Assembly (NCBI RefSeq): GCF_009914755.1
Contig: NC_060935.1
Strand: one strand, 5' to 3'
Length of the DNA stretch: 64,000 nucleotides
From: the human T2T-CHM13v2.0 reference genome, Homo sapiens
Both the position numbers and the translations under genes were made by a program. Positions 3,251 through 64,000 of the stretch are shown one piece after another. Positions within the stretch are counted from its first letter, which is position 1; each line of letters starts with the position of its first letter. The notes beneath the pieces were generated by a model. That model had not been told where the DNA came from and searched no databases. It saw only the letters and a list, made by a program, of their open reading frames with translations.

Positions 3251-3335
3251 TGAAAAAAATTCTGGATGGTGAGTTTATGAATAATTTTTTGAAAATTTTA
3301 TTCTGTATATTACAAATGTTCTAGTGAGTTTGCTT

Positions 3336-3582
3336 ACTCAATGTTTAACATAAAGAAGTGATACGAACTATAGGCAATAGATTTAGACTAAGTTCCACCT
3401 TTACAGTCTGTGTGGTCTCTGACAAGTAATCTAACTTCTCCATAACACAATTTGTACGACTGAAAGATGGGAATAATCCATGCAACCATCCTTTTGGGTT
3501 ATCACAAATATTAAAAGAGAAAATATATGTTATAACTTATAACTGTATCAATGAGTGGAAGTACTGTGAACCATTCACATCA
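3336..3582 (+). repeat. Inserted copy of 5151-5400 (local duplication, MIR-containing)
   Basis: Manual alignment: 13 substitutions plus one 3-bp indel in about 247 bp. Confidence 0.95.
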
Positions 3583-3879
3583 TTTGTAATATACAGAATA
3601 GTGAATGAGTAAACTCCTAGAACATTTGTAATATACAGAATAATACAATTTAATAGAGTTTTATAATCAGAAACTGTAAGTGTTATTTAGCCAAATAGAG
3701 AAAATATATCCTTTATATTAACATGTTTACATACTCCGGGTGCAGGTGGGTATAGACAGGGGTGGAAGTTCAGGAGACATCTTGGGGAAACACTTGGGAA
3801 GACTGTGTGTTATGGCTCCCCAGGTAGAATATTATCCTGCGTTATTGGGAACCACCGTGAAATGCTGCATGTGTTACTC

Positions 3880-4308
3880 TGAAATGGCGGAGTTCAGAAC
3901 ATGCTACCCCAAAATATGATGCATTTTATGAAACAGCAGAAGCAGAAAATTCTCTCTGATCTCTAGCCTTCTGCCTTGAAGCAAGCCGTGAAAGAATTCT
4001 CTGACCTTCCTCTAAGGTAAGTCACGTGACTCTCATTCCAGCGAACCCTTCGCAACACTAGAGAAAGGGAATGTGGCACAAGTACACTAAGAATTGGAAT
4101 AAACAGGCTTTGCTCATACTTCTGTATGACTGACCATAAAAATACAGAGATTTTTCTGTTCATTGAGTCTTCATTTTTTAAAATATTCCCATGTCACATA
4201 AAACTTACATTAAATAAATGGCTGTGCTTTTCTCTTGTTAATTTGTCTTAGTGATAAAGGTCTCAGCCCTGAACCTCACAATGGGTGAGAAATCTTTTCT
4301 CCCCTGCA
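3880..4308 (+). mobile_element. ERV1-class solo LTR (MER39/MER34-like)
   Basis: gttcagaacatgctaccccaaaatatg...cccatgtcacataaaacttacattaaataaa...cagccctgaacc...ttctcccctgca. Confidence 0.7.
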
Positions 4309-4639
4309 GTACTTTTCTTTCTTACTCAAGAATAAACATGACCAGAGCTCTGATTATCTTCCAACTCTTGACATCCAAGTTTTGAAACGTCCTTTGTAAA
4401 GAACTGCTAATTTCTGGCAACCAATTGCTGACAATCTAAAGACATTAGTAACGTTACTGATTTCAGTGTATATGAAGGCTACATATACCTTCAGCATGAT
4501 GATCTTTTATTGCTGTGAGAACGTATCTTTTTATCATCCCTTCCCATGAAATAAATAAACCCAGCAATAAAGTGATATGGAAAGAAAAACAGCTCTTAAG
4601 ATTGATTGTAATGTGACAAGGACCTGAATATGTTTATGT

Positions 4640-4800
4640 ATATTTAATTTCATAACATTGCAATAAAATAGGACTATTATTTCTCCCATTTTCAAATTAA
4701 GAAACTGAGACCTAAATGGGTAAGTAACTTGTTCAAGATGTAATGTTTAATACTGTCTTAATTTACACAGGTTTATTCCAAAGGTCACACTCTGAATTAT
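4640..4800 (-). mobile_element. MIR SINE
   Basis: tattatttctcccattttcaaattaagaaactgagacctaaatgggtaagtaacttgttcaag. Confidence 0.7.
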
Positions 4801-5150
4801 CAGTCATAATTTTTCCCAGTCCGTCCCTGAAAAGAAAACACACACATGCACACAGAGACATGATTATAAAACACGGGTCAAGTACTAACAAGAGGAATAA
4901 ATTGATCATGTTATTTTATATCTTGTAGTCTAATATTCATATTGCCTCTCACATATCTGGGTTTGGTAAAGAATTCATTCACCCATATCTAAGAGGTTAG
5001 GATTACCAGTCTTAAGAAGCAAATAAATAAATTATATTTCAAACAGAGTTTAACATATGAAAAGTGTTTTGCTTATTGAAAATTTGAGAGGGGGCTTGTT
5101 ACTTCCCTCATTTTCTAATATGTACCTTGTGAATTGTATAATATACAGGC

Positions 5151-5400
5151 ACTCAATGTTTAACATAAAGAAGTGATAAGAACTATAGGCAATAGATTTA
5201 GACTACTAAGTTCCACCTTTACAGGCTGTGTGGTCTCTGACAAGTAATTTAACTTCTCCATGACACAATTTGTACAACTGAAAGATGGGAATAATCCAGG
5301 CAGCTATCCTTTTGGGTTATCACAAATATTAAAAGAGATAATATATGTCATAACTTATAACTGTATCAATGAGTGGAAGTACCTTGATCCATTCACATCA
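5151..5400 (+). repeat. Donor segment (MIR plus flank) of the 3336-3582 duplication
   Basis: About 95% identical to 3336-3582; continuous with native flank (ggcactcaat). Confidence 0.9.
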
Positions 5401-5539
5401 AAATTTCTCTATTTCAAACAACATAAAAGTTTGAAAAAAAATGCCAAGATGGCATATCATTAATTGATAGAGTTTATGCTCTTTCAGAGACTCTTTTAGA
5501 AACCAGCTAAATAGGTTTTCAAACATACAATACCATTAT

Positions 5540-5632
5540 GAGAGATGAGGAGAAAGAGAAGAGGAGGGTAAATGAAGAAGGAATAAAGAGAGTGGAGAAG
5601 AGAATAGAGTAGAAAGAAAGAAAGAAAGAAGG
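5540..5632 (+). repeat. GA-rich low complexity with (GAAA)n
   Basis: Purine tract ending agaaagaaagaaagaaagaa. Confidence 0.8.
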
Positions 5633-6579
5633 CCAACATACACACTATTAATTGTTTTATTTTCTATTTATAAAGCAGAACCCTGAAACCCTTTGTCTTT
5701 CCTGATAATCTTTAAAAACTCTCCCAATAATTCACTTTTCAGTAGTTTTCCACTTGTTTCTAAGTACCTCAGAGCAGGGAGAAGCAGTTGATTTCCTGAT
5801 GTAATTATAAGCTGTATTTTAATTAGATTAGTGATAACTAATGCATTTTAAGTTTCTGACTTTGTTGCTTAGGTAGAATACTAATTGAAAACAAAATGGT
5901 TAGAAGCAGGCAAATCAGGTTACAGGTTGAACTGACACCATGCTGTCCTCAGTAAATAATCAAAAAGGAATAACAAAGTCTTTCCTGATCCTGTTCTCTG
6001 CTTCTTGTTTTCTCCTACGTTGTAAACTAGAAAAAGATATTTAGTGTAGGACACTGTATTTCTTCAGCATAGGTAATGTATGAACATGAACTATAGCACA
6101 GTGGATGAGACAAGAGAGAAAGAATGAAAAAAAATATGAGTATGACAGAAAGAGTGAGAGAGTGAGGCAGAGAGAAAGAGAGGGTAAGAAGATAGAGCCA
6201 AAGCCAGAAGCAGAGGCAGACAGACACAGAGACAGGGACACATACTGGCTCAGCTGAGGATTCTACTTACTTATTCTATTATGGAAGTTTATCAACATTT
6301 TTAATAGAAAAGGTAGTATGTGAGTTTTTTATTCTCATCTATATTAACATCAACAATTCTATCCACAAACCAATCCTATTCTGGTCCTATCAGAACTTCT
6401 CTCTCATTCACAATGTTTATCATTTGTTGTGACCTTAAAATTTTTGATTTACCTAAATAATATTTTTCTCATTAATTTGAGCACACAATGTGTCTATTTT
6501 GTTTTGTGTCCTTTACACTTATTTTGCTTCTATAGTGCCAGGCTATGTGCATCCTGTCTTCATATATGTTATCTAATAC

Positions 6580-7043
6580 TGTAGCAGGACAAGCAGCAGA
6601 CAAGTACCCCTCAGACACCTAGTTGTGGAAGGAAAGGGCTTTATTCAGCTGGGAGCATCGGCAAGACTCAAGTCTCCAAAAACCGAGCTCCCCTAGTGAG
6701 CAATTCCTGTTCTTTTTAAGGGCTTACAACTCTAAGGGGGTCTGCATGAGAGGGTCGTGATCAATTAAGCAAGCAGTGGGTACATGACTGGGGGCTGCAT
6801 GCACTGGTAATCAGAACAGAAAAGAACCGGACAGGGATTTTCACAGTGCTTTTCCATACAATGTCTGGAATCTATAGTTAACATAACCAGTTAGGTCGGG
6901 GTCAGTCTTTAACTACCAGGCCCAGGGTGTGGCAACAGGCTGTCTGCCTGTGGATTTCATTTCTGCCTTTTAGTTTTGACTTCTTCTTTCTTTGGAGGCA
7001 GAAATTGGGCATAAGAAAGTATGAGTTGTGGTCTCCTCCCATA
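6580..7043 (-). mobile_element. HERV-E LTR (LTR2 family), no internal sequence
   Basis: tgtagcaggacaagcagcagac...gggctttattcagctgggag...ggaggcagaaattgggcataag...gtggtctcctccc, reverse complement of LTR2; inserted in an L2 3' end; TSD not cleanly resolved. Confidence 0.9.
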
Positions 7044-7261
7044 TTCCAGGCATGTGCTCAATAAATGCCATAAGAATGTCCTGAGTGAATGAAAGGGTGA
7101 ATGCGTGGACAGATAATTTGTTTACTTCCTAAACAAAGCTTTTCACATAAGAATTTTTTTAAATTAGCTAATGAGCACCTAATGTATGCTAGGCTCTTGG
7201 GAAAAAAAGAATGAACACAACACAATTTTGTTTCTACTCTGTTTAACAAACAGTGATGCAG

Positions 7262-7445
7262 ACTTATTATTTGCCAGTTATTGTTCTACATGCTTTCCAA
7301 ATATTAACCAATTTAATCCTTTTAACAAGCCTATTATGTAAGTACAATTATATACAGAAACACAGACTCAGAGTAGTTAAGTGATTTGCCTAGGACTATT
7401 CAGCTAATAAGAATTTGAATTGAGATTCAAACACAGGTATGCAGG
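7262..7445 (-). mobile_element. MIR SINE
   Basis: tttaatccttttaacaagcct...tacagaaacacagactcagagtagttaagtgatttgccta...gagattcaaacacagg. Confidence 0.75.
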
Positions 7446-9515
7446 AATATGAATTGTAACTTATTTTTCTTGGATTTTGCTACTCAGACTATAAAAATAT
7501 ATGCATACACAACACACATTTCTGACTTTTTTGTTTAATTACCTTCTTTTTAAACTCATTAATATCCTTGTATACTCATAGGTATTCATCATGTGTGCAC
7601 GGCACAATAGGTAAAATGTATCCGAGAAAACACCAAATATTTAGAATTAAACAAACACATTCTAGTAATTAAAGGATCAAAGAAAAATTGCAAGGAAAAA
7701 TAAGGGATGTTATGAATGATAAAAGCATATCAAAATTTTGGAGATGAGCTAAAAAAACTTAAATGAAATATATAGCTTCGAATGCTAACACAAGAAAAGA
7801 CAAAATGTCAGTGACCTAAGTTTTCACTTTAATATGTGGGAAAATAAAAAAGCAATACGAAAGAAATAAAGATGAGAGCAGAGTTCAGCATAATAAACAG
7901 AGGAAAACAACAGAGAAAATTAAGTGTCAAAAGTTAGTTGTTACAAAAATAAACATAATTGATAAACCTCTAGCAAAACAAATAAAGGGACACAATATAT
8001 AAATATCAGCCATGAAAGAGAGATTATTACTAGATTGTACAGACACTAAAAAGATTCTAAGATAATATTACTTGTAACTCTATGCAAAAAAACATTACAC
8101 CTGCGTAGCTCAGACAAATTTTTTGAGAAACATCACTGGCCAAAACTGATAGGAGGCAAAACAGAAAATTTGAATAGTCCTCTGAATGTGAGTTTCATTT
8201 TGACAACTCCAAAACAGGTAAAACAATAAACCCAGATCATTTTACTGCTAGGATGTATCAAACATTAAAGAAGAAATAACATCAATCTTAAAAAACTCTG
8301 TCATGAAACATAAAAGAAGGAAATACTTCCAAACTCATTATGTAAAGTCACATAAAATTGGTACCAAACTACATGACAAAAAAAGAACACTATAGATTTA
8401 CATTCCATTACTTATGGTCTAGCGATATTCCTAGTAAATAGCAATATTCTTAGTAAAAAATATTTTTAAAAGCTAGAATAGAATGGAAATTCATCTATCT
8501 GATAAAGGATATCTACAACAAACTTAGATAATATCAACTTAGTGTTGAAATCCTAAAATATTTTGTCTAAAATCTAGAATAAGGCATTTCTATTCAGTAT
8601 TACACTGGATGATCTAGTCTTTGTAATACGACAAAAAAACAGAAGTAGCTGAAAAAATACAGCAAAGAGACAATTAAAACTGTCTTTACTTGCAGAAAAT
8701 ATAAATTTTTATATAGAATATCCTTAAAAATTTACAAATGTTAAATAAACAACAGGAAAAATTAAGAGTTGAAGTTGGTTATTTACAAAGATCAACAAAA
8801 TTGATTAACCCATCACTAGGCATGTCAAGAAAATGACACCATATATTAATATCAGGCATGAAAGAGTGGGTATTACATAGATTGTATAGACATTGAAAAG
8901 ATACTGAGAAAATAAAATTGAAGATTAAGTTAACAAGTTTGCAGACACAAAGTTAATGTACAGAATCAATCATTATTTTATATGCTAGCAGCAAAGAATT
9001 GGAAAACAAAATATAATTCCATACACAATAATCTCAAAAAAGAGAATATTTAAAAAACAATTTTCACAAAAATGTTTGGACCTACACGGGAAACTATAAA
9101 ATTTTGCTGAGAGCAAAAAAAGCACAATTTATGGAGATTTACATAATATTCATGAATTAGAAGACTCAACATTATTAATGTAGATTCTACTAATTCCAAT
9201 TGGTTTTTTTTGGAAAAGATTACAAATTGAATATAAAAGCTATATAGGCATGCAAAGTGCAAAGAATATCATAAGCAATATTGAAAAAGATGAACAAAAT
9301 TGAAGAAATTATACTATATGATTTCAAAACTTACTTTAAAGTTATCACAAACAATATGGCATTGGGCATATAAATCAATAGATTTGAATATAAATTTCAA
9401 ACATAGACCTACATATATACATCCATTGTTTTAAATGAAGGCACTAAAACAAAATATAATATGGGAATAACTATTTGTTTTTAAAAAAATAAATCTTGAC
9501 TCCTACCTCATACAA

Positions 9516-9826
9516 CAGTCTTCCTTTATTCACGGGGAATATTCCAAGACCCTCAGTGGATGCCTGAAACCATGGTTAGTACCGAACAATATACATATTT
9601 TTTTCCTATACATACATATCTATGAAAAAGTTTAATTTTTAAAATCAGGCATAGTAAGAGATTAACAAAATAATAATAAAATAAATTATATAATATGCTA
9701 TAATAAAAGTTATGTTAATGTGCCCCTCCTCAAAATATCTTATTGCATGTAATATTTTCAGATCACAGTTGACCCTGTATAACTAAAACCGTAGAAAGCA
9801 AAACCATACATAGGGATGAACTAATG
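9516..9826. mobile_element. MER44 (Tigger7-derived MITE)
   Basis: ttccaagaccctcagtggatgcctgaaacc...agtaagagattaac...cagttgaccctgtataactaaaaccgtagaaagcaaaacc. Confidence 0.8.
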
Positions 9827-10264
9827 TATACAAAAGTGAGTTAGAGATGGATAAAAGATCCACATGTAAAATAAATAATATAAAGCTTTTAAAATAAAAC
9901 ATAAGGAAATGTCTTCACAACTTGGGACTAGGCAAAAACAGGTCATTTAAAGCAATAACCATACAATAACAAATCGATAAATTAGACTTCATCAAAAATA
10001 AACATTTTTCCATCTAGGGCATAATTAAGAAAATGAATAAATAAGCCACATACTGGGAGAATATATTTGCAAAATATGTGTGTCACTAAATCTGATATCT
10101 GGAAATACCTCCTATGACTCAAAATTAAAAGACAAACAACTCAGAAATAGATGACATATGTGAGTAAGCATTTCACAAGAAAAATACAAATAAATGAAAA
10201 ATATCTCAACCTCATTAGACTCTTGGGAAATGCGATTAAAACCATAATGTGATACTACTATCAC

Positions 10265-10388
10265 ATTTGAATTGAGATTCAAACACAGGTATGCAGGAAG
10301 TATTTCACGTTTGGATTTTGCTACTCAGACTATAAAAATACAAGCATACACAACACACATTTCTGACATTTTTGTTTAATTATCTTCT
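10265..10388 (+). repeat. Inserted copy of 7413-7547 inside L1
   Basis: 35-bp identical block, a replaced internal segment, then about 78 bp with 4 substitutions. Confidence 0.95.
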
Positions 10389-10699
10389 AAATTTCTAAAT
10401 TTAGAAGAGTGACAAAACCAAAAGCTGGAAAGGATATGGAGCAACTCGAAGTCTTACAAACAGTTGGTGCAGATGTAAAATGGTGTAACTACTTTGGAAG
10501 AAGTTGTCCTGCAAGTTCTTATAAAACTATGCACATATTAATCCTGTGACCCAGCAATTCTACACATATGCCTCTATAAAAAATATATCAAAATATATGC
10601 TTAACAAAAACTGGACAAGAATGTTTCAGGCAGATTTATTCATAATAAGCCAGAATTAGAAATAGCTCAAGTGTCCATATATGGGCAAATGCATTTTTA

Positions 10700-19866: not shown

Positions 19867-20148
19867 TAAGGCAAAGGACCTAGATAAACATTTCTCCAAA
19901 GAAGTCATACAAATGTCCAACATGTATACAAAGAAATGCTCAACATCACTAATTATCAGGGAAGTGCAAATCAAAACCACAATGAGACATTATCTCACAC
20001 CTGTTAATAGCTTTAATTTAAAAAGAGAGAAATAAGTTTGGGGAGTATGCAGAGAAAGGGAAACCCTGATGCACTGTTGGGAAAAAGATAAATTGATATA
20101 GCTATTATAAAAAATAGTATATTTTTTTTCAAAAAAATAAAAATAGAA

Positions 20149-20630: not shown

Positions 20631-21522
20631 GATATATATACATAAAGGAATATATATAAAATGTTATATATGTAATATATATAGAAAATATTATATATAA
20701 TGGAATATATATATATCACATATATATCACATTTTCTTTATCTATTCATTATATTAATATATATATAATGGAATTTATTTCAGCCTTAAAAAATAAGAAC
20801 ATTTTGACGTTTTTAAAAACATGGGTGCACTTTGAAGAACATTACGCTAAGTGAACTAGTCAGGTACAGATAGACAAATACTGCATGATATATATACATA
20901 AAGAAATATATATAAAATGTTATATATATGTAATATATATAGAAAACCTTATATATAATGGAATATATATCACATATATGTGATATATATAATAATATGT
21001 GATATATAATGGAAAATATATATCACATACATATCACATTTTCTTTATCCATTCATTATGTTAATATATATGATGGAATTTATTTCGGCCTTAAAAAATA
21101 AGAACATTTTGTCATTTTTAAAAACATGGGTGCACTTTGAAGAACATTATGCTAAATGAACTAGTTAGGTACAGATAGACAAATATTGCATGATATATAT
21201 ATATAAAGAAATATATATAAAAAGTTATATATGTAATATATATAGTAAATGTTATATATAATGGAATATATATCACATATATAATGGAATATATATATCA
21301 CATTTATGTGATATCTATAATAATATGTGATATATAATGGAAAATATATATCACATACATATCACATTTTCTTTATCCATTCATTGTGTTTATATATATG
21401 ATGGAATTTATTTCGGCCTTAAAAACTAAGAACATTTTGTCATTTTTAAAAACATGGGTGCACTTTGAAGAACATTACGCTAAGTGAACTTGTCAGGCAC
21501 AGACAGACAAATACTGCATGAT
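20631..21522 (+). repeat. Tandem triplication (about 260-330 bp units) in the L1 3' UTR
   Basis: Block atggaattta...agaacattttg...aaaacatgggtgcactttgaagaacatta...gacaaata(c/t)tgcatgat occurs three times, with TA-rich spacers. Confidence 0.95.
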
Positions 21523-26552: not shown

Positions 26553-27507
26553 TCCTGATCTTGCAGGAAAAGGCTTCAACTTTTCCCCATTCAGTATGAT
26601 GTTAGCTGTGAATTTGTCATATATGGCCTTTGTTGTTTTGAGGTATATACATTATATGCCTAATTTGTTAAAAAGAGATGTGAAATGTTGTCAAATACTT
26701 TTTCTGTGTCTATTGAAATGATCATATAGCTTTCATTTCTCTCTTTTTTTAATGTAGTGTATTGCTAGAATTGTACGTTAGTATAGCCAGAATATGGAAA
26801 CCAGTAGGCAAGTTGCTCAAAAAATTAAAAAGAGAACTACCATATAATCCAACAATCACATTACTGGGTATATATGCAAAGAAAATGAAAACAGTATGTC
26901 GAATTACAGAACTATTTGCATTATTTGCACTATTTATAATAGCCAAGACATGGAATCAACCCAAGTGTTCAGCAACAGATGAATGGATAAAGAAAATATG
27001 GTACATGCAATGAAATTCTATTCATTCATATAAAATGGAATCCTGTCAATTGAGACAACATGGATGGACCTGGATGACATCACATTAAGTGTAGTAAGCC
27101 AGACACAGAAAGACAAACACTACATGATCTCATTCATATGCTGAACCTAAAAAACTCTTTAAATAGTTAATATCATGAGAGCAGAGAGTAAAACAGTGGT
27201 TACTAGAGACTGGGGAGAGGAAGGAGGGCAGGGAGAGTTCAGTCAACTTGAATGAAGCTATGATTACATAAGAAGAATAAGTTCTGGTGTTCTATTGTAC
27301 AGTAGGACAATGATGGTTAACAGTAAGGTATTCTACATTACAAAATAGCCAGAAGAGAAGTTTTTGAATGTTCTCATCACGAAAAAACGATAAATACATG
27401 AGGTGATAAATATGCCCTGATTTGATCATTCTACAATATACATGTGTCAAAACATCCAATTGTATCCCTTAAACATGTATAATTATAATGTGTTAACTAA
27501 AAATAAA
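26553..27507 (+). mobile_element. L1MA4/5-like 3' fragment with inverted 5' piece (26553-26760 antisense ORF2)
   Basis: Antisense ttttccccattcagtatgatgttagctgtg abuts sense gaactaccatataatccaacaatc...3' UTR...aaaaataaa. Confidence 0.8.
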
Positions 27508-28963: not shown

Positions 28964-32615
<3,652 letters not shown>

Positions 32616-37044: not shown

Positions 37045-37506
37045 TTTTCTATTGTTATTTATTTAGTCTTTAGAGATAGGAACTCACTGAGTTAGTCAGT
37101 CTGGCTCAAATTCCTGGGCTCAATAGATCCTCCCACTTCAGCCTCACTGTCAAAATATTCCACAATGATCCTCCAAAAACTAGTCAAATTACCATTCCAT
37201 TGATTCTACTGGATAATGAAATAAACTCATGTACTTATGAGTTAATGGCTCCAGCAGCTTCTGCGGGTAGGTGGATCTCAGGTGTGATTTGCTAAATTTG
37301 ACTGTGTTTCCACACTTAAGGTGATTGTTCGACCTGTTCCTTGAAATCACTGATGCCATTAATAAAAGTCATTGATTTTCAATTTATTCAGGTTTTTCTT
37401 GTTGGAAGAAGTGGGGTGATGACTTCCAAGATCTTTACATGTAAGAGTTGATACCAGACATAAGGCCACGTATTTTTGGGCTACAGGCATGCACCACTAT
37501 ACCCTG
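37045..37506 (-). mobile_element. FLAM (free left Alu monomer) split by a 335-bp insertion
   Basis: tagagatagg...ttcctgggctcaatagatcctcccacttcagcctc [insert] tgggctacaggcatgcaccactataccc. Confidence 0.8.
37143..37477 (+). repeat. Inserted copy of 39807-40145
   Basis: Manual alignment: about 32 substitutions plus 2 small indels in about 335 bp. Confidence 0.95.
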
Positions 37507-38210
37507 TTTAGGTTAACTAAATCCTTACTGATTTTCTGCCTGCTTGATCTATAAATTACTGAAGAGGGATGTTAAGATCATCAACTCTAATAGTGAATTT
37601 GTCTCCTTTTCCTTGTAGTTCCGTTAGTGTTTGCCTTACATGTTTTGATGGTCTGCTGTCAGGTACATACATGTTAAATATATTTTCTTGGAATTTCTGC
37701 CTTCTTTGGTTTTAATTGAGCTTTCATATGATTCCATCTTATCTCCACTGTTAGCATGTATTTTACTTCCTTCAAAAAAGTTAGTGGTTACTTAGAGTTT
37801 TAATGTACCTTTGCAACTAATCTAAGTCCACCTTCAAATAACACTATATGGTTTCACAGGTAGTACAGGTATCTCACAACCAAGTATTACCAATTTCTCC
37901 CTCTTGTCCATTATAACATTACTGTCCTTTATATCATTATCCATATACACTAATTATCCATTGTGTTGTTGCTATTACTACTTTAAATGAAGAGTTTTCT
38001 TAGATGTCTTAAGAATAAGAAACATAAAAGATTTTTTAATTTTAACTTTATTTTTTTCTCTGGCACCCTTTTATCATGTGATCTGATTTTGTGACTTACC
38101 TTTATTCTCTTTGAAGATCTACTTTCAATATTTCTTGCAGGGTAGTTCTCCAGGTGCTGGATTTCCTCAGATTTTATTTATCTAAGAAAGTCTTTTTATT
38201 TCTTCCTAGC

Positions 38211-38341: not shown

Positions 38342-40602
38342 AATTTTTACTTGATATTGAATTCTAGTTTTGTGGTAATTTTCTTTCATCACTTTAAATA
38401 TTTCACTCAACTATTCTTGCTTGCACAATGTCTGGTATAACTGTTAGCCTTAATCTGTAGGTATAAAGTTTTGGTTCTTTGTTCACTTGATTTTTTCTTT
38501 CTGGCTTCTTTCATAATTTTGTCTTTATCTTTGGTCTTCTGCAGTTTGAATATGTCATGCCTAGATTTTTGGTATTTATCCTGATCGGTGCTACCTGAGC
38601 TTCCTGAATCTGTAATTAGTTGTCCATCATTGACTTTGAAAAAGCTTGGCTATTACTATCTCAAATATTTCTTTGGTTCCTTTCTCTTATTTTTCCCTTT
38701 CAGGTGTTTAAATTATGCATATGTTGCACATTTCATGATTGTCCCACAGTTTTTGGATATTATGTTCTGGTTTTTTTTACATTCTTTTTCTTCTCTTTGC
38801 ATTTTAGTTTGGAAAGTTTCTATTGACATGTTCAAACTCACTGATTATTTTCTTGGCTGTGTCTAGTCTACAGGAAATTTATTCAAAGGTACTCTCCAAT
38901 TCTGTTGAAGCACATTTTTTTTCTAGCATTTTCTTTTGATTCTCAGTTTCCTTCTCTCTGAATGTATTACCCATCTGTCCTTCAATATTGTCCACTCTTC
39001 CATTAGATTCTTTAACATATTAATCATAGTTATTTTAAATTCCTATAGGATAATAGAAAAATATGTGTTATATATTAGTCTGGTTCTGATGCTTACGTGT
39101 TTCTTTAGGCTGTCTTTTCCTGCCTTTTATCATACCTTGTAATTTTTTGTTGAAAGACATAATATATTGTGTAATAGGAACTGATGTAAATATTCCTATA
39201 GTGTGAGGTTTTATGTTAATTTAACTAAGTGCTGGGCTGTGTTTAATGTTTGCTGAAGCTGTCAGTTCCAGAAGCTCTGGTTTCTTGGAGTGTCATTTTT
39301 TCTTTCTTTCTTTCTTTCTTTATTGTTATCTTTGGAGTTCCCTAAGAATACCTTTGAAATAGTCTATACATTACAGCTCTTTCTTTTTTAATATGCTGTT
39401 GTTATAATGGCACTCCGTTGCTGTGGTTATAAAGTATGAAGTTGGAGAAGTGTTCTATAATCTTATAATTAAGTATCAGGCTTTTAGTAGTCTAAGTTCC
39501 TGGCCAGTGACCTTCAAAAGTGTTTTTCAGCAGTTTTTTCTTTCCTTAGATGAGACCAAAAAACTGGGGATACTCAAGTTGGCTATTTGCCCTTCTCCCA
39601 TAGCAGATCAGGCTCTCGTAAAGCCATTTTTGTTGTTGTCGTTGACTACGCATTTTTAACAGGAAAAGTTTTGGGGATATCTCAAAATGGTTATTACTTT
39701 TACACCCCTTCAACCCATGATCTTTACTGCAAGAGCCTGGTACTATTCCTGGAGGTAAAATCCATGAAAATGTGAGACTTCCCTAACACTAGGTTTCAAG
39801 GAATTTCTCACTGTCAAAATATTCCACATTGATCCTCCAAAAAGTAGTCAAATTACCATTTCAGTCTTTCTACTGGATAATGAAATAAACTGGTGTCCCT
39901 ATCAGTTAATGGCTCCAGTAGCTTCTGCACCAGGTAGGTGGATCCCAGCTGTGATTTGATAAATTTGACTGTCTTTCCACACTTAAGGGGATAGTTTGCC
40001 CTGTTACTTGAAATCACTGATGCCTTTAATAAAAGTCATTGATTTTCAATTTGTTCAGGTTTTTCTTGTTGGAAGAAGGGGGGGTGATGACTTCCAAGAT
40101 CTTTAAATGTAAGAATTAAAATCAGAAATAAGGCCACATATTTTTATTATTCCTATTATTCAGATAAGGCCTTAATTGAAAATCGAAATCTATCTTTTCA
40201 AGTGCATGTTCTTACATTGGTTAAAAACTACCCTCATTAAGCTACTTAGTCTATTGGTTCTTTGATCTATTAAATGACTTACAGTTTTTGAAAAATAGAA
40301 GGCACTGAAGGAATGATAAGTAAATAAAGAAAAAAAGAATTAGGGAATATTGTTAGATTAGAAAAAATCTGAGGTGAATATAAAGTTCTGAGGCCTGTTG
40401 ATTCAAGGCTTAATATGTAGTCTAGCCAAATAAAGGTACATGTTGATGTAGAATCCATTACTTTGTATAGAATAAAAAAGAACAGATTTTTATCAGAATT
40501 GTCTTGGAATAATTCAAGTTGTCAGGATAGAGTGTCCAAAGTCAAACTGGAAAGTTGGAATTTATATAGATATATATATATAATATATTTTACTATCTGG
40601 AA

Positions 40603-40661
40603 CTGAAGCTATCAGTTCCAGAAGCTTTTGTTTCTTCGAGTGTCATTTTTTTCTTTCTTTC
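40603..40661 (+). repeat. Copy of 39253-39310 embedded in TA-rich DNA
   Basis: ctgaagct(a/g)tcagttccagaagct...tttctt(c/g)gagtgtcattttttt. Confidence 0.9.
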
Positions 40662-40824
40662 ATAAATATAATATACATTATATTTAATATATAATTTATA
40701 TTTACATTATATTTAATATATAATTTATATTTACATTATATATTGAGAATATATAGTATTATATAATTTTCATATATAAAATAATATATATACATTATAG
40801 CCACACATACACAAATATAATCCT

Positions 40825-41729: not shown

Positions 41730-43988
<2,259 letters not shown>

Positions 43989-48059: not shown

Positions 48060-48800
48060 ATCTTTGATCACCCCGCTCATGTTTTTGCAGGTGACTCCCA
48101 AATCCAAATCTATAGTCCCATCCTTTCTCATGAGCTCCTGTCCTGTGTTTACAAAGTACTTGCTGAATCTCTTAAGAACATGCTGAGCACTCAAACTCAA
48201 CCTTCCCCAAACGGAGTCGTCATTTTCTTGTCTCCAGGCCCCATCATTCAACCACAAAAATACAGGTTCAATTTTGGTTCCCTGTTGTCATGTAAACCAG
48301 CTGTCAAGTATAGTGACTGGCACACTTCCCATATGTCCTTTCTGACATCCTTCATCCAGTATTCCCTCACACCAACCTGTTCTATATCTTATTGCCTTCA
48401 CATTCTACATATGTTTTTGATCATGTCAACTGTGCAGAAAATCACTGTCACTCAATCAAAAGTATCCAAACTCTTTAGCCTAATGTTGGAAGTCCCCCAA
48501 CATCCATAAACAACTTCTCTCCAGCTTATCTTCCAGAATTCCTAGCACCTAGGACACGGGAACTTTGTAGAACATGCCAGTACATTTCTCCTCACTGCTC
48601 TTCCACCTAGGCTGTTCCATTCTTCACACTCATGTAAGCCCCCACTTACCCTTTCAGGCAGATTTTAAAATGTATTCATTACTTCTATTAAGCATCTCTG
48701 ATTCTTTCCACGTAGAATAGCCGTTCTCACTCATCTTTAATTCAGAATTCTTTACCTGTATTATGGGTCTTAATTCTTTAATTCAGAATTCTTTACCTGT
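48060..48800 (+). mobile_element. L2 LINE fragment
   Basis: gcaggtgactcccaaatccaaatctatagtccc...tctcatgagctcc...aaagtatccaaactctttagcct. Confidence 0.65.
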
Positions 48801-48815
48801 ATTATGGGTCTTAAT
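48734..48815 (+). repeat. Perfect 41-bp tandem duplication
   Basis: tctttaattcagaattctttacctgtattatgggtcttaat x2. Confidence 0.97.
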
Positions 48816-57762: not shown

Positions 57763-57789
<27 letters not shown>

Positions 57790-57845
57790 ATACACACACA
57801 CATACACATACATGTTCTCTTTGTATATATATATACACACACATA
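57763..57845. repeat. (TG)n / (CA)n / (TA)n compound microsatellite
   Basis: Direct reading. Confidence 0.9.
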
Positions 57846-58574: not shown

Positions 58575-58596
58575 CACACACACACACACACACACA
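58575..58596. repeat. (CA)n microsatellite
   Basis: Direct reading. Confidence 0.9.
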
Positions 58597-59448
58597 GACA
58601 TATAAATACAAACATGCAAAAACAAATAAATAAAACATCAACCCCTTCAGTGGCTCCTTGTTCTTATCCCACTTAGCTCTTCTATTGCTTGATACCTTAA
58701 AGAAACATACTTTATCCAAGCTTTATGCTCTTGTAAAAAATTAATATGAATATGCTAACAATTTTCCCATTGGGTTTGCAATTATTCCTACAATGTTTGG
58801 CATGCATGTGGGTGGCATGAAAAAACAACTTGTCCTTTGACCCTTCTCTGGATATTATCCCAGAACAATAAAACACTAAATGTTAACAGTGGCAGTAAAA
58901 TAAAATATAGATGAATGATAGAAATTGTTCATATAGCTTAGGAAAAGTTTATCTCTAAAAATAGTTGTTTATATTGAACAGAGAGCTTCCTTAAAGCAGT
59001 AGCTGCTAATAGGGCTAGAACATTAAAAAGAAATACTTATTGGTGTGTCATAAAACTTGGGATAATAAAGCAGCACTTGCTTAAACTAATAAAGATACAT
59101 TAGAGTGTGTGAAAATAGGAAGCATTGCTAAAGAGAGAGACTGCTCTTTAATGACCAAAAATGAAGAAAGCAGAAAGTAGAAATTTTTCTGTATTAGAAA
59201 CCCATTTTTAAGTTTCAAATTATCTCAAGGCAAGAATAATCCTCATATTCTAGTGGTGGTAAATAATGAAGTCTTTCATCTATCATATTCTGGTAGTTAA
59301 CTCTAACCCCCTGGGAACAGCTACTGAAGAGATGATGAGAAAAAGTCCACAAATCAGGCATCTGAAAGGAGAGTAAAATAGTTTCTGAGATATCATCCCG
59401 GTGGGAGCCACACAAGGGATGACTATAGTACACATGGACTTCTCTTAG

Positions 59449-59856
<408 letters not shown>

Positions 59857-60066
59857 AGGGGAAGCTTTTTTATGGAAAGGGCTTTTGCTTAGGGTATTGA
59901 GTTTGGCTTTTTACTGCTGAAGTCATTTTGGATAACTACACTGAAAAAAATCCCTCCTAAGAGAAAGAATAGAGATTGCCTGACAAAGGACATAAATTTA
60001 ATGAATAAACAGAAATAGGTTAAACTGCAGAAACTGACTACCTCTTGTGTATGAAGAGGCAGCTTT

Positions 60067-60371
60067 GGCCAGGCACAGTGGTTCACTCCTGTAATCCCAG
60101 TACTTTGGGAGGCCAAGGTGGTCAGATCACTTGAGGACAGGAGTTCGAGACCAGCCTGGCCAACATGGTGAAACCCTATCTCTATGGAAAATACAAAAAT
60201 TAGCCGGGCGTGGTGGTGCACACCTGTAGTCAAGCTATTCCAGAGCTGAGGCAGGAAAATCACTTGAACCCAGGAGGCAGAGGTTGCAGCGAGCTGGGAT
60301 TGTGCCACAGCACTCAAGCCTGGGCAACAGAGCAAGACTCTCTCTCTCTCAAAAAAAAAAAAAAAAAAAAA
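60067..60371 (+). mobile_element. AluSx/Sz-like
   Basis: Full dimer, long A tail; TSD aggcagcttt. Confidence 0.95.
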
Positions 60372-60714
60372 AGGCAGCTTTGCACAGATCACTCAGAAGC
60401 TGGACAGCTAAACACAGTTGTCTTCCATTAGTCAACCTCAAATGCCTGGCCCAAGTACTGATGCTATGGTAGGTTTGAGAGACCTGGGACATAGAATCAT
60501 AAAAGTGACTGGAATTTATGAAGCATCCCAGCACATTATGTGAGATCTGCAGATAGCAAAATCTATTTTAAAATGTTGAAAAACATTTGAATGTGTCTAG
60601 ACAGAAATGGACATCCTAATTTTGAGGATAGTTTTAAACTTTATTTTTATAAAATTAGCAAATAATCTACCCATGGAGGTAATAAGTGGAATACGATGTG
60701 TTCTCCACTTGTAC

Positions 60715-61118
60715 TGTCATTGACTGGTTCCCCAGGAAACTGAAACTGAAATGGAGATCTGTGTACACAGGTCATTTCTTAGGGAGTATTCTCAAGAACA
60801 ATACCTACAAGGAAGTGAGGGAAGAAGATGGATGGGCCAGAGAGAAGTTGAACTCAGATGTGTTTGCAACTGAGGCCTCAGCTGATCACAGAAGGAGCAG
60901 GGGCTCTAGAAAGTTCAATGATATTCTGTATTGAGGTAAGAGGACTGAGCCTTTCTATCTTTACTCTGACCAGTCATTGGATGCAAACAGCTTTTGGGAA
61001 GGGTGCATAACCTTAGGCAAGGTGTCACTTTTTGCTGTATAGTACTTCCTGGAAAGGGACTACTCAGTTGTGGACAATCAGTTGGCAACACAAGTTGGCC
61101 ACTGCAGCACCTGCTACA
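60715..61118 (-). mobile_element. LTR16A-like ERVL LTR
   Basis: ggttccccaggaa...tggagat...agagagaagttgaact...gaggcctcagctgatc...gaccagtcattggatg...cataaccttaggcaagg. Confidence 0.75.
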
Positions 61119-61387
61119 CCAGTGTGAAGCTTTATTGTCCATATTTAAAATCTAGTTTTCCATTCATGATGTGTGACTTAGTTACCACGTCTGGAAATGA
61201 ATATAAAATATGACTTACTTCACAGTTTCAAGAATAAAATACAGATAAAGCCTCTGAAATAGTGACTAGCTTATAGTAAGCAATTAGTAAGTACTTTTAT
61301 AAAATATCTTTATAGCCACGGCCTTTTTATAAAATATCTACAGCTAGGGCTTTCTAAATATGGCTAACAGGGTCAAGTATCTACTAT

Positions 61388-62084
61388 TATAGCTGGTCCT
61401 CATGATTCATTGATTCCATATTTACAAATTCTCCTGCTCTCTGAATTTTATTTGTAACTCCCAAATCAATACTCACAGTGCTTCAATGGGCATTCAGGAA
61501 CATGCACAGAGTAGCAAAAAAGCACAGAATAACCCAAGATATGCATTCCCAGCTGAGGTCCAACAAGGTGGTGCTCTGCCCTATTGTTTCAGCTTTCACA
61601 CTGTAAATATGTCCTTTCCATTGCCTATTTAGTTCTTTGTTTTTTACATCTTTGTCCTTGTTGGTGGTGCTTAAAATGGCCCCCTGTTATGATATCATGA
61701 CTACTAAAACCCCCACTTTTGGTTAATTAAGCATCGTGCTTAATTGCTGTCTAGTGTACCTAAGTGCAAGAAGGCTGTGTAACACTTCATAGAGAATATA
61801 TGTGTGTGTTAAAAAGCTTCATTCAGGCATGAGTATAGAGCTGTTGGCCATTAGTCCAATGCTAGTGAGTCAACGGTAATTTTAAATAGGGTGTCTTTCA
61901 ATAGAGAACCATACAAAACATGGTTATGTATTGATCAGTTGACAAAAATGTGAGCTCAAGTTTGCAGGACACTAACTCTGTATATACCCTAGGAGCAATG
62001 GTCCAGTATTGGCTAAGTCAATGTTCACGAATGTTCATGGTAACTTTATAGAATGCAGCTACCACAAATAATAAGAATCAACTG
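61388..62084 (+). mobile_element. MER82 (Tigger-derived)
   Basis: tttatttgtaactcccaaatcaatactc...ttcccagctgaggtccaacaagg...aaaatggccccc...ctaagtgcaagaaggctgtg...ataagaatcaactg. Confidence 0.85.
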
Positions 62085-62159
62085 TAACAATAATAATAAA
62101 AGCAATAATAATATACTTTTTTTTTTCTAGTTCCAGGTATGTCACATTTATTTTCCGAG

Positions 62160-63187
62160 ATGCTGTTGATGCCCCATCTCAAATCCCTTAAGCCTATGGC
62201 TACATTTTCCTGAAGTCTTTGTAGATAATTTTTAATATGCTGATATCTCCCCACCTCAGAAACATGTGCCTCCTTGCCTGCGAAGTCTCTCTCCTGCACC
62301 CGAGAGCAGCCGAGAAATGTGAGCAAGTTAAAGCCCCAGGGACAGCTAACAAAAAAAAATGGGAGATTGTAAGTAAACACCCCAGCATCCCAGCACTCCA
62401 GAAATCTTGGGACTGATATAGAGACATAGTTTCTCAGAATTCCCCAGTCGAATTTAGGCATCATCATTTCTTGTAGGGATGACTCACTGTGCCAGCTAGC
62501 CTTGAAGATGGCTCCTAATGACCCTTGCCTCTTGGTAAATATGTTCTCTATATTCCCCTCTCATGTTAATTAGGGCTGATTGGTGTAGTCAACAGGATAC
62601 TAATGAAGTGATATTGTGTGACTTTTGATCATATGTCATTAAAGATATCAAGGCTTCAGCATTGGCCTCTCTTGTATCACTTGTTCTGGGGAAAGCCAGT
62701 TGCCATTTAATGAAATTATCTAATCAGTCCTATGGAGAGGTACATATGATGAAGAACTGAGACTTCCTCCCAAAAGCCAGCATCAGCATACCAACCATGT
62801 GGCTAAGCTACCCTGAAAGAAGATCCACCATCCCTAGTCAATCCTTCAGATGACTATGTCCTTGGCCCGCATCTTGATTTAAATTCATGAGAACCTCAGA
62901 ACCAAAACCACCGAGAACCACCAATCCAAGCTCAAATGAGAACCCCATGTGAATAGGACAAACATTTATTGCTGTTTTAAATTACTAAGTGTTGGGGTAA
63001 TCTGTTACATGACAGTAGATAACAAATACATCTATACATGAACACATATTTTATTGGATTTACTCCTTTTCTTCTCTCACTTAACCCATTCTCACATGTA
63101 CACTTCATAGCATCATCTCAGAAATAAACTATATATGCCCATGTCCTTATTCCAGAGTCTGCTTTTAGAGGAACTCAAACTTTGACT
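62160..63187 (+). mobile_element. LTR16B/C-like ERVL 5' LTR, split by MLT1F
   Basis: agttaaagccccagggacagc...gtaaacaccccagc...aaataaacta...gtctgcttttagaggaactcaaac. Confidence 0.65.
62488..63030 (+). mobile_element. MLT1F/G-like MaLR solo LTR
   Basis: tgtgccagctagccttgaagatggctcctaatgacc...tctggggaaagccag...ccttcagatgact...tctgttacatgacagtagataacaaataca. Confidence 0.85.
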
Positions 63188-64000
63188 CTTGGTACTAAGA
63201 AGGTTCTTAAAAGCAAATTCTTATGATGATATCCTGGAATTGAATCAATTATTAGTCAATGGGCCCCATTTCTGGTATTAAGTGGGGTGGTGGTATCTGG
63301 AAAGCTGATTACTAAAACTTCCACTTTTGGTTAATTAAGGATTAGGTAAAGGTAGAAAGAGATGTATTAGTTTGTGCAATAGCTCTAATTTTTGAATGAT
63401 ATTGGGGAAATGGTAAATACACACATACATGTCTATTTATTTATAGGTAAACTGACTTTCGTTAACTTTCCTAGAATGCTGAAGAAAGACAATGGCAAGA
63501 ATAGGTCAATTAACTATTCACTCAAGGTACTCAGTGAAAACCAGGAGGTATCTGTGTTAGAATTCAAAGAGATCTCCATTCCCTATAGCTGGAGTGTCTG
63601 GCCAAGAATTTAATCTTAAGTATAGCAGAGCTAAATAGAAGACAGTACACTGGTATCTCTCCTGTGCTAACGTGAAAGTCCAATTAGGAACATGCAATAG
63701 CTTTACATAAGGTGTGTGTCTCACAAAATGATGTATGACTTTCTCAACATCTATTCATGCTTTCTTTCATTGCCTCTAGACTAATAACTAGAATCAGCCC
63801 TCAGAATAACACAGATAATTAAAGTTTTGCTTTGGTAGCAAATGTTTTATTTACCCAAAGAACTACAGGATTTGGAAAGTACATACAAATAAGACTAGCG
63901 AGACACTTGGGGGAGTGGGTCTTAAAGATGTGGAATATGAGGCTGGATGGAGGAGCTTATTAGTATGGGAGTGCTCTCCCATAACTGTGGTTCAATATTC
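63188..64000 (+). mobile_element. ERVL internal region (ERV3-16A3-like) with disrupted gag, running off the window
   Basis: 63848-64000 translates, with stops and frameshifts, as YLPKELQDLESTYK*..EWVLKMW..NMRLD..ISMGVLS..FNI, similar to ERV-L Gag YTPKEL...YKQ...WEWILRVW...LD...FIDMG.LS...FN. Confidence 0.7.

What the first reader, a model, noticed from the sequence alone, without database searches (positions are those of the whole stretch)
3299..63339. Recurrent short-range templated insertions across the window (candidate fossil break-repair system)
Seen: six segments have a second, same-orientation copy nearby: 3336-3582 from 5151-5400 (1.8 kb away), 8747-8914 from 7905-8067 (0.84 kb), 10265-10388 from 7413-7547 (2.9 kb), 37143-37477 from 39807-40145 (2.7 kb), 40603-40661 from 39253-39310 (1.35 kb) and 61698-61731 from 63306-63339 (1.6 kb). 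Five copies visibly interrupt a known repeat (L1, FLAM, MER82), which fixes donor and acceptor. None has a poly-A tail or TSD, so they are not retrocopies. Several have 2-5 nt junction microhomology or fold-back inversions. Identities range from clearly diverged to about 95%, so they arose at different times. Known: templated insertions are a recognised product of Pol theta end joining, SDSA and MMBIR. Inference: about one event per 10 kb, all direct and within a 1-3 kb window, suggests a persistent locus propensity or a mutational class that repeat-masked analyses overlook.
Basis: partly seen in the sequence, partly recalled or inferred. Interest (0 to 1): 0.8.

Follow-up and report, generated by a model that had tools for sequence, protein, structure and literature searches.

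The report
Old break-repair copies of nearby DNA
This stretch of human chromosome 11 holds five or six ancient short copies of DNA from 1-3 kb away, pasted in when breaks were repaired; this kind of scar was described in 2009, and only their unusual number here is still unexplained.

Summary
All six pairs exist at the stated coordinates. Five (P1, P3, P4, P5, P6) have no other full-length copy in the genome. They are direct, 1.35-2.85 kb apart, 37-339 nt long and 87-94% identical. The sixth (P2, 76%) is an out-of-order L1 piece inside the same L1, so its donor cannot be fixed.

Four acceptors demonstrably split a dispersed repeat: an L1 twice, an Alu-like monomer, and a DNA-transposon-like repeat. 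The P1 acceptor does not. None has a poly-A tail or target-site duplication. Junctions carry 3-5 nt microhomology, an 11-nt deletion, 7-20 nt filler and hairpins.

This is the known class of repair-mediated duplications (Pace et al. 2009, PMC2671141; the "doublets" of Thomas et al. 2004). It is not an overlooked class.

The density here is 5 per 64 kb, against 2 comparable events in 290 kb of control sequence (nominal p about 0.003). The control set is small, the window was chosen after the fact, and 90 kb of neighbouring desert had none. A local hotspot is therefore possible but not shown.

The parts
3336..3582 (+). P1 copy, probable acceptor, homologous to 5151-5400
   Evidence: 93.6% over 250 nt. 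Only 2 copies in the genome. Polarity is inferred only from junction complexity; the copy does not lie inside a repeat.
3298..3340 (.). Left arm of the 43-nt inverted repeat flanking the P1 copy. Its last 5 nt (ACTCA) overlap the start of the copy.
   Evidence: 91% complementary to 3602-3643.
3583..3600 (+). 18-nt filler at the right junction of P1, a copy of nearby sequence
   Evidence: Exact direct repeat of 3625-3642 and exact reverse complement of 3299-3316. There are no other occurrences in the window.
3602..3643 (.). Right arm of the inverted repeat flanking P1
5151..5400 (+). P1 probable donor
7413..7547 (+). P3 donor, in sequence with no other genomic copy, just upstream of the detectable L1
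7700..10678 (+). Old L1 element that hosts the P2 and P3 acceptors and the P2 donor candidate (approximate span)
   Evidence: Translation with X at stops matches human L1 ORF2p colinearly. The 3' part aligns to a paralogous copy in the chrX control block.
7905..8067 (+). P2 donor candidate, in its native position in L1 ORF2
   Evidence: 76% to 8747-8914. Lies in the colinear ORF2p match. At least 40 other genomic relatives at 68-74% over long stretches.
8747..8914 (+). P2 acceptor: a 168-nt out-of-order L1 ORF2 piece inserted further downstream in the same L1
   Evidence: ORF2p residues 666-713 are followed directly by residues from about 349 onwards. A chr1 paralog has 53 nt where the window has 222 nt, about 169 extra.
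10265..10388 (+). P3 acceptor, inserted in the 3' part of the L1
   Evidence: 2 copies genome-wide. The chrX paralog aligns to 9940-10266 and 10463-10678 with 50 nt between the two stretches, against 196 nt in the window.
10389..10408 (+). 20-nt filler at the right junction of P3. With the last 6 nt of the insert it forms a perfect 12-bp hairpin.
   Evidence: Exact inverted repeat 10383-10394 / 10397-10408. P(>=12) is 0.0095 at random positions. Absent at the donor.
37051..37145 (-). Left part of the Alu-like monomer split by P4
   Evidence: Matches window and control Alu copies, with the matches ending at 37142-37147.
37143..37477 (+). P4 acceptor, with CTC shared by donor flank and host at the left junction
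   Evidence: 89.4% over 339 nt. Only 2 full-length copies. About 11 nt of the host monomer are missing.
37478..37514 (-). Right part of the split Alu-like monomer
   Evidence: (family D15).
39807..40145 (+). P4 donor. It contains part of an older dispersed repeat.
39253..39310 (+). P5 donor. Its TTTC run continues beyond the copied part.
40596..40661 (+). P5 acceptor (40603-40661) plus 7-nt snap-back filler (40596-40602), lying in an AT-rich simple repeat
   Evidence: 91.5% over 59 nt, 2 copies genome-wide. 11-bp exact inverted repeat 40596-40606 / 40612-40622, absent at the donor. A tandem repeat starts at 40665.
61683..61734 (+). P6 acceptor. 45 nt (61683-61727) are extra relative to paralogs. 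The donor-like part is 61698-61734. AAG is shared at the right junction.
   Evidence: MAFFT with 3 paralogous copies of the host repeat. Gap arithmetic on 9 further paralog rows.
63306..63342 (+). P6 donor, in unique DNA
   Evidence: Only the query itself was found genome-wide for 63090-63560.

Best explanation
The window carries five secure fossil 'repair-mediated duplications' (P1, P3, P4, P5, P6) and one probable one (P2). In each case a chromosome break in the germline was repaired with a detour. A resected 3' end annealed at a few bases of microhomology to sequence 0.8-2.9 kb away on the same chromosome or sister chromatid. It copied 37-339 nt, came off, sometimes folded back on itself or switched template again to add 7-20 nt of filler, and then annealed to the other broken end.

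The result is a same-orientation second copy at the break site. It has no target-site duplication and no poly-A tail, and sometimes a small deletion of host sequence. The events are neutral, fixed and old: roughly 12-27 My for P1 and P3-P6 at 2.2e-9 per site per year, twice that at 1.1e-9, with P2 older.

Shown: the copies, their privacy to this locus, four interrupted hosts, and the junction anatomy. Inferred: a break as the initiating lesion, the enzymology (SDSA-like synthesis and/or polymerase-theta end joining), the donor/acceptor polarity of P1 and P5, and the ages.

The number of events in one window is best read as the upper tail of a genome-wide background process, not as a dedicated system.
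For: 1. Privacy. P1, P3 and P5 have exactly 2 genomic copies. P4 has 2 full-length copies. P6 has no other relative. As a positive control for the test, the inverted pair 26570/29241 found by the same pipeline had 1221 first-look candidates.

2. Proximity. All 5 private pairs lie within 3 kb. Random placement within the window gives 6e-6.

3. Hosts split:
- P2b: ORF2p residues 666-713 are followed by residues from about 349, and a chr1 paralog lacks about 169 nt.
- P3b: a chrX paralog lacks about 146 nt.
- P4a: the Alu-like monomer is split with 11 nt missing.
- P6a: 45 extra nt relative to 3 aligned paralogs.

4. No TSD and no poly-A at any acceptor.

5. Scars:
- Microhomology: CTC at P4a, AAG at P6a, ACTCA at P1a.
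- Filler: 18 nt at P1a, 20 nt at P3b, 7 nt at P5b.
- Hairpins of 11-12 bp whose one arm is donor-templated and whose other arm is filler. These are absent at all 10 donor junctions. At least 11 bp occurs at 2 of 10 acceptor junctions against 0.013 per random site, p 0.007.

6. Every measured property falls within the ranges of Pace et al. 2009: donor under 5 kb away, length up to 619 bp, microhomology 2-9 nt, deletion 1-15 nt, filler 1-68 nt, no poly-A.

7. The same kind of event turned up in random control blocks: chr7 (106 nt, 85%, 1.0 kb apart) and chr3 (a 61-nt chimeric acceptor), both private.

8. Hinch et al. 2023 (PMC7615360, passages read) report template switching and TMEJ signatures, with an excess of structural variants within the extent of resection (about 2 kb), at human meiotic breaks. 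That matches the distance range seen here.
Against: - No outgroup genome was available, so no empty orthologous site was seen and no event is dated directly.
- P1a is not inside a repeat, so its polarity could be the reverse.
- P2's partner is only marginally closer (76%) than unrelated family members (up to 74% over 168 nt). P2 could have another donor, or could have arisen during L1 retrotransposition.
- The genome search is word-seeded. It missed the 76% P2 partner and the 37-nt P6 partner, so '2 copies' means no other close copy, not no distant one.
- Insert lengths of 124-339 nt exceed the usual range of polymerase-theta insertions, so the enzyme assignment is open.
- The density is about 11 times my control estimate. 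A pure background reading has to attribute that to chance plus selection of the window.
- Donor and acceptor differ by 26 transitions to 34 transversions. This is unusual for neutral decay, so part of the divergence may date from the copying itself and the ages may be overestimates.
Confidence: 0.85

Rival explanations
1. The window is a real, long-lived hotspot. Local sequence or chromatin, for example AT-rich structure-forming tracts or ancient recombination hotspots, made this ~60-kb stretch break or misrepair repeatedly. The density then reflects biology rather than sampling.
For: - 5 private direct events in 64 kb against 2 in 290 kb of controls run through the same pipeline. Binomial p 0.003; 0.0018 when P2 and the inverted control event are included.
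- At the point estimate of the control rate, only about 5 such windows are expected genome-wide.
- Two of the events (P3b, P4a) are of the type Pace's pipeline detects. At 824 events genome-wide, at least 2 in one 64-kb window is expected in only about 7 windows.
- P5b abuts an AT-rich tandem repeat, and P4a lies about 540 nt from another.
Against: - The control set is small: 6 blocks with 2-3 events. At the upper 95% bound of the control rate, about 1100-2300 such windows are expected.
- The window was selected because of these pairs, so the p-values are not valid tests.
- Two blocks from the same gene desert, 0.5 Mb away on either side, had 0 events in 90 kb.
- Pace et al. saw no tendency of such events to cluster.
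- Overlap of event spans within the window (P2 within P3, P4 with P5) is about what uniform placement gives. This is my own estimate and was not scripted.
- Tandem-repeat proximity holds for 2 of 6 acceptors only.
Confidence: 0.15
2. The copies arose by replicative template switching (FoSTeS/MMBIR-type fork stalling and re-priming on a nearby template), not by repair of a two-ended break.
For: Several features are equally expected from serial replicative template switches: microhomology at junctions, multi-step junctions (P1a has an 18-nt templated filler plus 43-nt inverted arms; the chr3 control acceptor is a chimera of two donors 114 nt apart) and short-range donors.
Against: Nothing in the sequence discriminates between the two. 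The small host deletion at P4a and the clean insertion without rearrangement of flanks fit a two-ended break resolved by annealing, as Pace et al. argue. The experimental and germline data seen concern breaks.
Confidence: 0.2
3. For P2 only: the out-of-order L1 piece was created when the L1 was reverse-transcribed (template jumping on the L1 RNA), or was captured from a different L1 copy. It was not copied later from 7905-8067.
For: - The P2 segment is ordinary L1 ORF2 sequence with many genomic relatives.
- Its identity to the local partner (76%) is barely above the best long genomic match (74% over 168 nt).
- It is significantly more diverged than the other five pairs, so it may be as old as the element itself.
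Against: The nearest, same-orientation, same-element copy is still the best long match found. An internal 168-nt fragment without a 3' end or poly-A is not a normal L1 insertion.
Confidence: 0.35
4. The pairs are chance matches, unrecognised dispersed repeats or LTR pairs, or assembly artefacts.
For: - One pair from the same pipeline (26570/29241) and two control candidates did turn out to be dispersed repeats.
- P6 is only 37 nt long.
Against: - Window-scale E-values range from 4e-6 to 5e-125.
- Genome searches show no other close copies for the five pairs.
- P6a coincides exactly with a 45-nt insertion relative to paralogs.
- Copies that differ by 5-11% cannot be collapsed or duplicated reads of one locus.
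Confidence: 0.03

Closest known systems
[quoted passage not shown]
   Same: A single extra copy of a locus-private segment inserted within 5 kb of its source, found because it splits a transposable element. Matching properties: length of tens to a few hundred nt, no poly-A, microhomology, small deletions, filler, chimeric acceptors, and mostly old primate-age events.
   Different: Nothing in kind. Three of the six here would escape that pipeline: P1a is not in a TE, P5b is in a simple repeat and P6a is under 50 nt. P2b would be filtered out as a nested TE. The local density is far above their catalogue's average of 0.017 per 64 kb, and they saw no clustering.
[quoted passage not shown] 2004, PNAS)
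   Same: [quoted passage not shown] From memory only: they peak about 1 kb apart and favour the same strand, as here.
   Different: As I recall it, that study used exact matches of 25-100 bp, whereas the pairs here are longer and diverged. The paper itself is not held, so these details are recalled and were not checked.
Polymerase-theta-mediated end joining with templated insertions and snap-back synthesis
   Same: Microhomology use, short filler copied from adjacent sequence, and hairpins in which one arm is newly made (P3b, P5b, the P1a filler). TMEJ signatures and an SV size range within the ~2-kb extent of resection are reported for human meiotic breaks (PMC7615360, passages).
   Different: To my knowledge (not checked here), typical theta insertions are a few to a few tens of nt. 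The main inserts here are 59-339 nt, which suggests more processive D-loop-type synthesis for the long part.
Short-range template switches in great-ape genomes (PMC7954356, seen only as a search listing and the start of its abstract)
   Same: Local template switching that leaves fossil clusters of change.
   Different: As I recall it (not read here), those events are much shorter in range and produce inverted, in-place replacements. Here the copies are direct, 1-3 kb away, and are net insertions.
Templated insertions at engineered or spontaneous breaks in human cells (Min et al., bioRxiv 10.1101/2022.09.30.509517, abstract read)
   Same: Insertions copied from elsewhere, enriched near the break, stimulated by single-stranded overhangs.
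   Different: There the donors are genome-wide and tied to transcription and RNA/DNA hybrids. The donors here lie within 3 kb in a gene desert, and nothing points to transcription.

Membership tests
Repair-mediated duplication (Pace et al. 2009) | The inserted segment occurs at only one other place in the genome | tested here: met
   P1, P3, P5: 2 copies. P4: 2 full-length copies. P6: no other relative found. Not met for P2, which is a dispersed L1 sequence.
Repair-mediated duplication (Pace et al. 2009) | Donor on the same chromosome within 5 kb, not tandem | tested here: met
   Offsets are 842, 1350, 1608, 1815, 2664 and 2852 nt.
Repair-mediated duplication (Pace et al. 2009) | The acceptor interrupts a transposable element whose two parts are contiguous in the family | tested here: met
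   Met for 4 of 6: P2b, P3b, P4a, P6a. Not met for P1a. P5b lies in a simple repeat.
Repair-mediated duplication (Pace et al. 2009) | No poly-A/T tail or retrotransposition-type target-site duplication | tested here: met
   Flank and terminus scan of all six acceptors. The T5 run at the end of P4a is donor-templated.
Repair-mediated duplication (Pace et al. 2009) | Junction hallmarks: microhomology 2-9 nt, deletion 1-15 nt, filler 1-68 nt | tested here: met
   P4a: CTC plus an 11-nt deletion. P6a: AAG plus up to 15 nt unaligned at the left. P3b: 20-nt filler. P5b: 7-nt filler. P1a: 18-nt filler plus ACTCA. P2b junctions were not resolved.
Repair-mediated duplication (Pace et al. 2009) | Empty orthologous acceptor site in an outgroup species | not testable with these tools
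   No other primate genome is held; the genome tool states that the window's genome has no relatives here. Only paralogous empty sites were used.
Polymerase-theta end joining (TMEJ) | Dependence on POLQ; insertions templated in cis (snap-back) or in trans from the flanks | tested here: inconclusive
   Snap-back-type hairpins at P3b and P5b, and locally templated filler at P1a. Enzyme dependence cannot be read from sequence, and the inserts are longer than is usual for TMEJ.
Retrocopy / L1-mediated transduction | Poly-A tail, target-site duplication, 3'-anchored copy | tested here: not met
   None of these features is present at any acceptor.
LTR pair or other dispersed repeat | Many genomic copies with shared ends | tested here: not met
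   for the five pairs. The test did detect dispersed repeats where they were present.

The most novel reading that the evidence does not exclude
This ~60-kb stretch of the 11p12 gene desert was a recurrent germline break or misrepair hotspot over tens of millions of years. It accumulated proximal templated insertions at roughly ten times the genomic rate, and part of the donor-acceptor divergence (transversion-rich, 26 ts : 34 tv) is a direct record of error-prone repair synthesis rather than of age.
Probability: 0.15. Interest if true: 0.55.

Novelty: new member of a known kind. Interest (0 to 1): 0.25.

Why it matters
The window gives clean, well-resolved examples of a known but little-used class of germline scar. 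They include events that the published TE-based catalogue could not have detected: one outside a TE, one in a simple repeat and one under 50 nt.

This supports the view that such events are much more numerous than the 824 catalogued. My controls suggest several per megabase, from only 2-3 events. If the local excess proved real genome-wide, it would point to long-lived break-prone domains. If the transversion excess is general, these pairs would be a natural archive of the error spectrum of repair synthesis. As it stands, the finding is mostly confirmation of established biology.

Tried and rejected
- Assembly artefact, chance, LTR pairs and retrocopies were rejected (see rival explanations).
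The left-flank repeat ends near 3250 with an A-rich tail, and three paralogs diverge from each other after it.
- My own first reading of a snap-back at P6a was withdrawn. The right arm of that palindrome is native to the host repeat. The inverted repeat at the P3b left junction may also be native L1, and the one at the P5b right junction is AT-rich repeat. I therefore count only P3b-right, P5b-left and the P1a arms as robust.
- PDB and Pfam searches of the translated L1 3' region (9800-10699) gave no match. The paralog alignment was used instead. HMMER's extension of the P2b match to ORF2p residue 446 is probably spurious, because the chr1 paralog shows that the insert is about 169 nt.
- I tested a model in which the opposite resected tail serves as template, which predicts filler on the donor-distal junction. 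P1 and P5 fit, P3 and P6 do not, and P4 is uninformative. This gives no support.
- A more sensitive banded search (10-kb tiles) found no further events in the window. It found three marginal 21-30 nt hits in the chr7 control block, with E from 1.6e-4 to 7e-3 per tile over about 70 tiles, which is compatible with chance.
- I looked for another local source for the divergent patch inside P3b. Only scattered 10-11-mers were found.
- No complex prediction or structure job was relevant.

Full report
**What was checked**

The window is human chr11:42,408,001-42,472,000 (T2T-CHM13), an AT-rich gene desert (GC 0.351). I aligned each claimed pair.
- P1: 3336-3582 / 5151-5400, 93.6% over 250 nt.
- P3: 7413-7547 / 10265-10388, 86.7% over 135 nt.
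- P4: 37143-37477 / 39807-40145, 89.4% over 339 nt.
- P5: 39253-39310 / 40603-40661, 91.5% over 59 nt.
- P6: 61698-61734 / 63306-63342, 89.2% over 37 nt, E 3.7e-6.
- P2: 7905-8067 / 8747-8914, only 76%, below my 84% filter.

The same filter also picked up two inverted items: 43-nt arms at 3298-3340 / 3602-3643 that flank the P1 copy, and the pair 26570-26627 / 29241-29299.

**Are the copies private to this locus?**

I searched the whole genome with each segment.
- P1, P3 and P5 have exactly two copies.
- P4 has two full-length copies. Its positions 98-320 belong to an older dispersed repeat that matches elsewhere at only 67-83%.
- For P6 only the query itself is found, and its partner's surroundings are unique.
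- The inverted pair 26570/29241 is a dispersed repeat with 1221 first-look candidates, which shows that the test discriminates.
- P2 is different. Both members are L1 ORF2 sequence with many relatives. The best long genomic matches reach 72-74%, against 76% for the local partner.

The genome search is word-seeded. It missed that 76% partner and the 37-nt P6 partner, so 'two copies' means no other close copy.

**Which copy is the insertion?**

- *P2b.* Translation of 8551-9150 with X at stops matches human L1 ORF2p residues 666-713, followed immediately by residues from about 349 onwards. The region around 7905-8067 is colinear ORF2p. A paralogous L1 on chr1 has 53 nt where the window has 222 nt, so about 169 nt are extra. 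That matches the 168-nt segment 8747-8914.
- *P3b.* A paralog in the chrX control block aligns to 9940-10266 and to 10463-10678. It has 50 nt between these stretches, against 196 nt in the window. The excess equals the 124-nt copy plus about 20 nt of filler.
- *P4a.* The flanks are an antisense Alu-like monomer. Matches to other Alus stop at 37142-37147 and resume at 37478, with 11 nt of the host missing.
- *P6a.* The flanks belong to a dispersed repeat with 869 first-look candidates. In an alignment with three paralogs the window has 45 extra nt (61683-61727) at one point.
- *P1a.* It is not inside a repeat. The left-flank repeat ends near 3250, and the paralogs diverge from one another beyond it.
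- *P5b.* It sits between AT-rich simple-repeat sequence on both sides.

**Junctions**

No acceptor has a poly-A/T tail of its own or a flanking target-site duplication.
- P4a shares CTC with the donor's upstream flank and has the 11-nt host deletion.
- P6a shares AAG at its right junction.
- P1a begins with ACTCA, which is shared with its left arm. It is followed by an 18-nt filler that is an exact copy of 3625-3642 and the exact reverse complement of 3299-3316. The whole structure lies between 43-nt inverted arms.
- P3b is followed by 20 nt of filler. Together with the last 6 templated bases this makes a perfect 12-bp hairpin.
- P5b is preceded by 7 nt that are the reverse complement of bases inside the copy, giving an 11-bp hairpin.

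Neither hairpin exists at the donor. Exact inverted repeats of 11 nt or more occur at 1.3% of random 91-nt windows. I found them at 2 of 10 acceptor junction windows and 0 of 10 donor junction windows (p 0.007). I withdrew a third apparent fold-back at P6a because its arm is native to the host repeat.

**Ages**

Mismatch fractions are 5.3% (P1), 5.6% (P3), 6.9% (P5), 9.6% (P4), 10.8% (P6) and 18% (P2, gaps excluded). At the rate used by Pace et al. (2.2e-9) these correspond to about 12-27 My for the five secure pairs and about 47 My for P2. At 1.1e-9 the ages double. P2 is significantly more diverged than the rest (p 1e-4). P1 against P4 is marginal (p 0.06). The five secure pairs differ by 26 transitions and 34 transversions. 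This is low for neutral decay: p 2e-4 against a transition share of 0.67, and p 0.012 against 0.60. The three private control pairs show 25 transitions to 5 transversions, though two of them lie in GC-rich sequence. Some of the differences may therefore date from the copying itself. Hinch et al. infer a 1.2% polymerase error rate for insertions at meiotic breaks.

**What it is**

All of this matches the repair-mediated duplications of Pace et al. 2009 (PMC2671141). I read the abstract, Results and parts of the Discussion and Methods.
- They found 1,136 TE-interrupting insertions with a single other genomic copy.
- 824 of these had the donor within 5 kb, and 753 within 3 kb.
- Mean length was 162 bp, with a maximum of 619 bp.
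- None of 39 inspected proximal events had a poly-A tail.
- Scars were microhomology of 2-9 nt, deletions of 1-15 nt and filler of 1-68 nt, with occasional chimeric acceptors.
- Most events predate the ape-monkey split.

They attribute the events to synthesis-dependent strand annealing on an ectopic nearby template, and they link them to the 'doublets' of Thomas et al. 2004. I could not read that paper. The class is therefore known, and it was discovered precisely by exploiting repeat annotation. A full-text search for 'repair-mediated duplication' returned 9 papers, none about clustering.

**Is the density special?**

I could fetch only 290 kb of control sequence. It comprised four seeded-random 50-kb blocks and two blocks (50 and 40 kb) from the same desert, 0.5 Mb away on either side.

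The identical pipeline gave 7 candidate HSPs in the window and 10 in the controls. I checked 7 of the 10 control HSPs by genome search:
- chr7 15169/16180 is private and direct.
- chr7 37356/42216 is private and inverted.
- chr3 9143/11172 is private and direct. A second HSP shows that its acceptor is a chimera of two donors.
- chr3 37294/39582 has an equally good match on chr20.
- The two chr11 43.04-Mb HSPs are a young dispersed L1-like repeat.

The three unchecked HSPs lie outside the 0.3-5 kb range (202 bp, 220 bp and 7.5 kb apart).

The controls therefore hold 2 direct private events, against 5 in the window. The binomial p is 0.003. The control rate is 0.44 per 64 kb (95% CI 0.05-1.59). 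The expected number of windows genome-wide with 5 or more events is 5 at the point estimate and about 1,100 at the upper bound. The two desert neighbours had none in 90 kb. The window was also chosen because it has these pairs. The excess may be real, but it is not demonstrated. The same kind of event, with the same orientation and distance, occurs in random sequence.

**Orientation and distance**

All five secure pairs (six with P2) are direct. With the verified controls the count is 7 of 8 direct, or 8 of 9 with P2 (p 0.07 and 0.04). All lie within 3 kb, which fits the distance distribution in Pace et al. It also fits the observation that structural variants at human meiotic breaks concentrate within the ~2-kb extent of resection and carry template-switch and TMEJ signatures. 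Donors lie to the right of the acceptor in three events and to the left in three.

**Verdict**

However, the class is established, and the suggestion of a special locus or system is unproven.

Noticed in passing
window, all donor-acceptor alignments (P1, P3-P6): Differences between the copies are transversion-rich: 26 ts to 34 tv, with P4 alone at 12:20. The three private control pairs show 25 ts to 5 tv. This may reflect error-prone repair synthesis or AT-rich context.
   Followed up: partly
window 48734-48815: A perfect (100%) tandem duplication of a 41-nt unit directly before the T-rich start of an Alu. It looks recent.
   Followed up: no
window 20666-21522: An AT-rich tandem array with a 328-nt period, 2.7 copies, 89% matches. 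The two best copies are 95% identical.
   Followed up: no
window 30011-30550 and 31423-31963: A ~540-nt inverted repeat (78-86% complementary) with an 872-nt spacer inside the long masked block. The arms also match 19870-20006 and 42659-43040, so these are probably two copies of a dispersed repeat in opposite orientation.
   Followed up: no
window 5133-5146 versus 3583-3600: The donor's immediate upstream flank contains a 10-nt word (TAATATACAG) that also occurs in the P1 filler and arms. This could be a trace of the template switch or an AT-rich coincidence.
   Followed up: no
L018:9143-9203 with L019:1172-1211 and L019:1325-1350 (chr3 control block): A 61-nt acceptor made of two donor pieces 114 nt apart that overlap by 5 nt in the acceptor. 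It is 97.5-100% identical, so it is a young chimeric event of the same class.
   Followed up: partly
L016:7356-7646 and L017:2216-2482 (chr7 subtelomeric control block): A locus-private inverted 291-nt duplicate, 86% identical and 4.9 kb apart. It is the only inverted private pair seen in 354 kb.
   Followed up: partly
window 10299-10312 versus 7447-7470: Inside P3 a short patch differs completely between donor (about 23 nt) and acceptor (about 12 nt), within otherwise ~95% identical sequence. No local source was found for it.
   Followed up: partly
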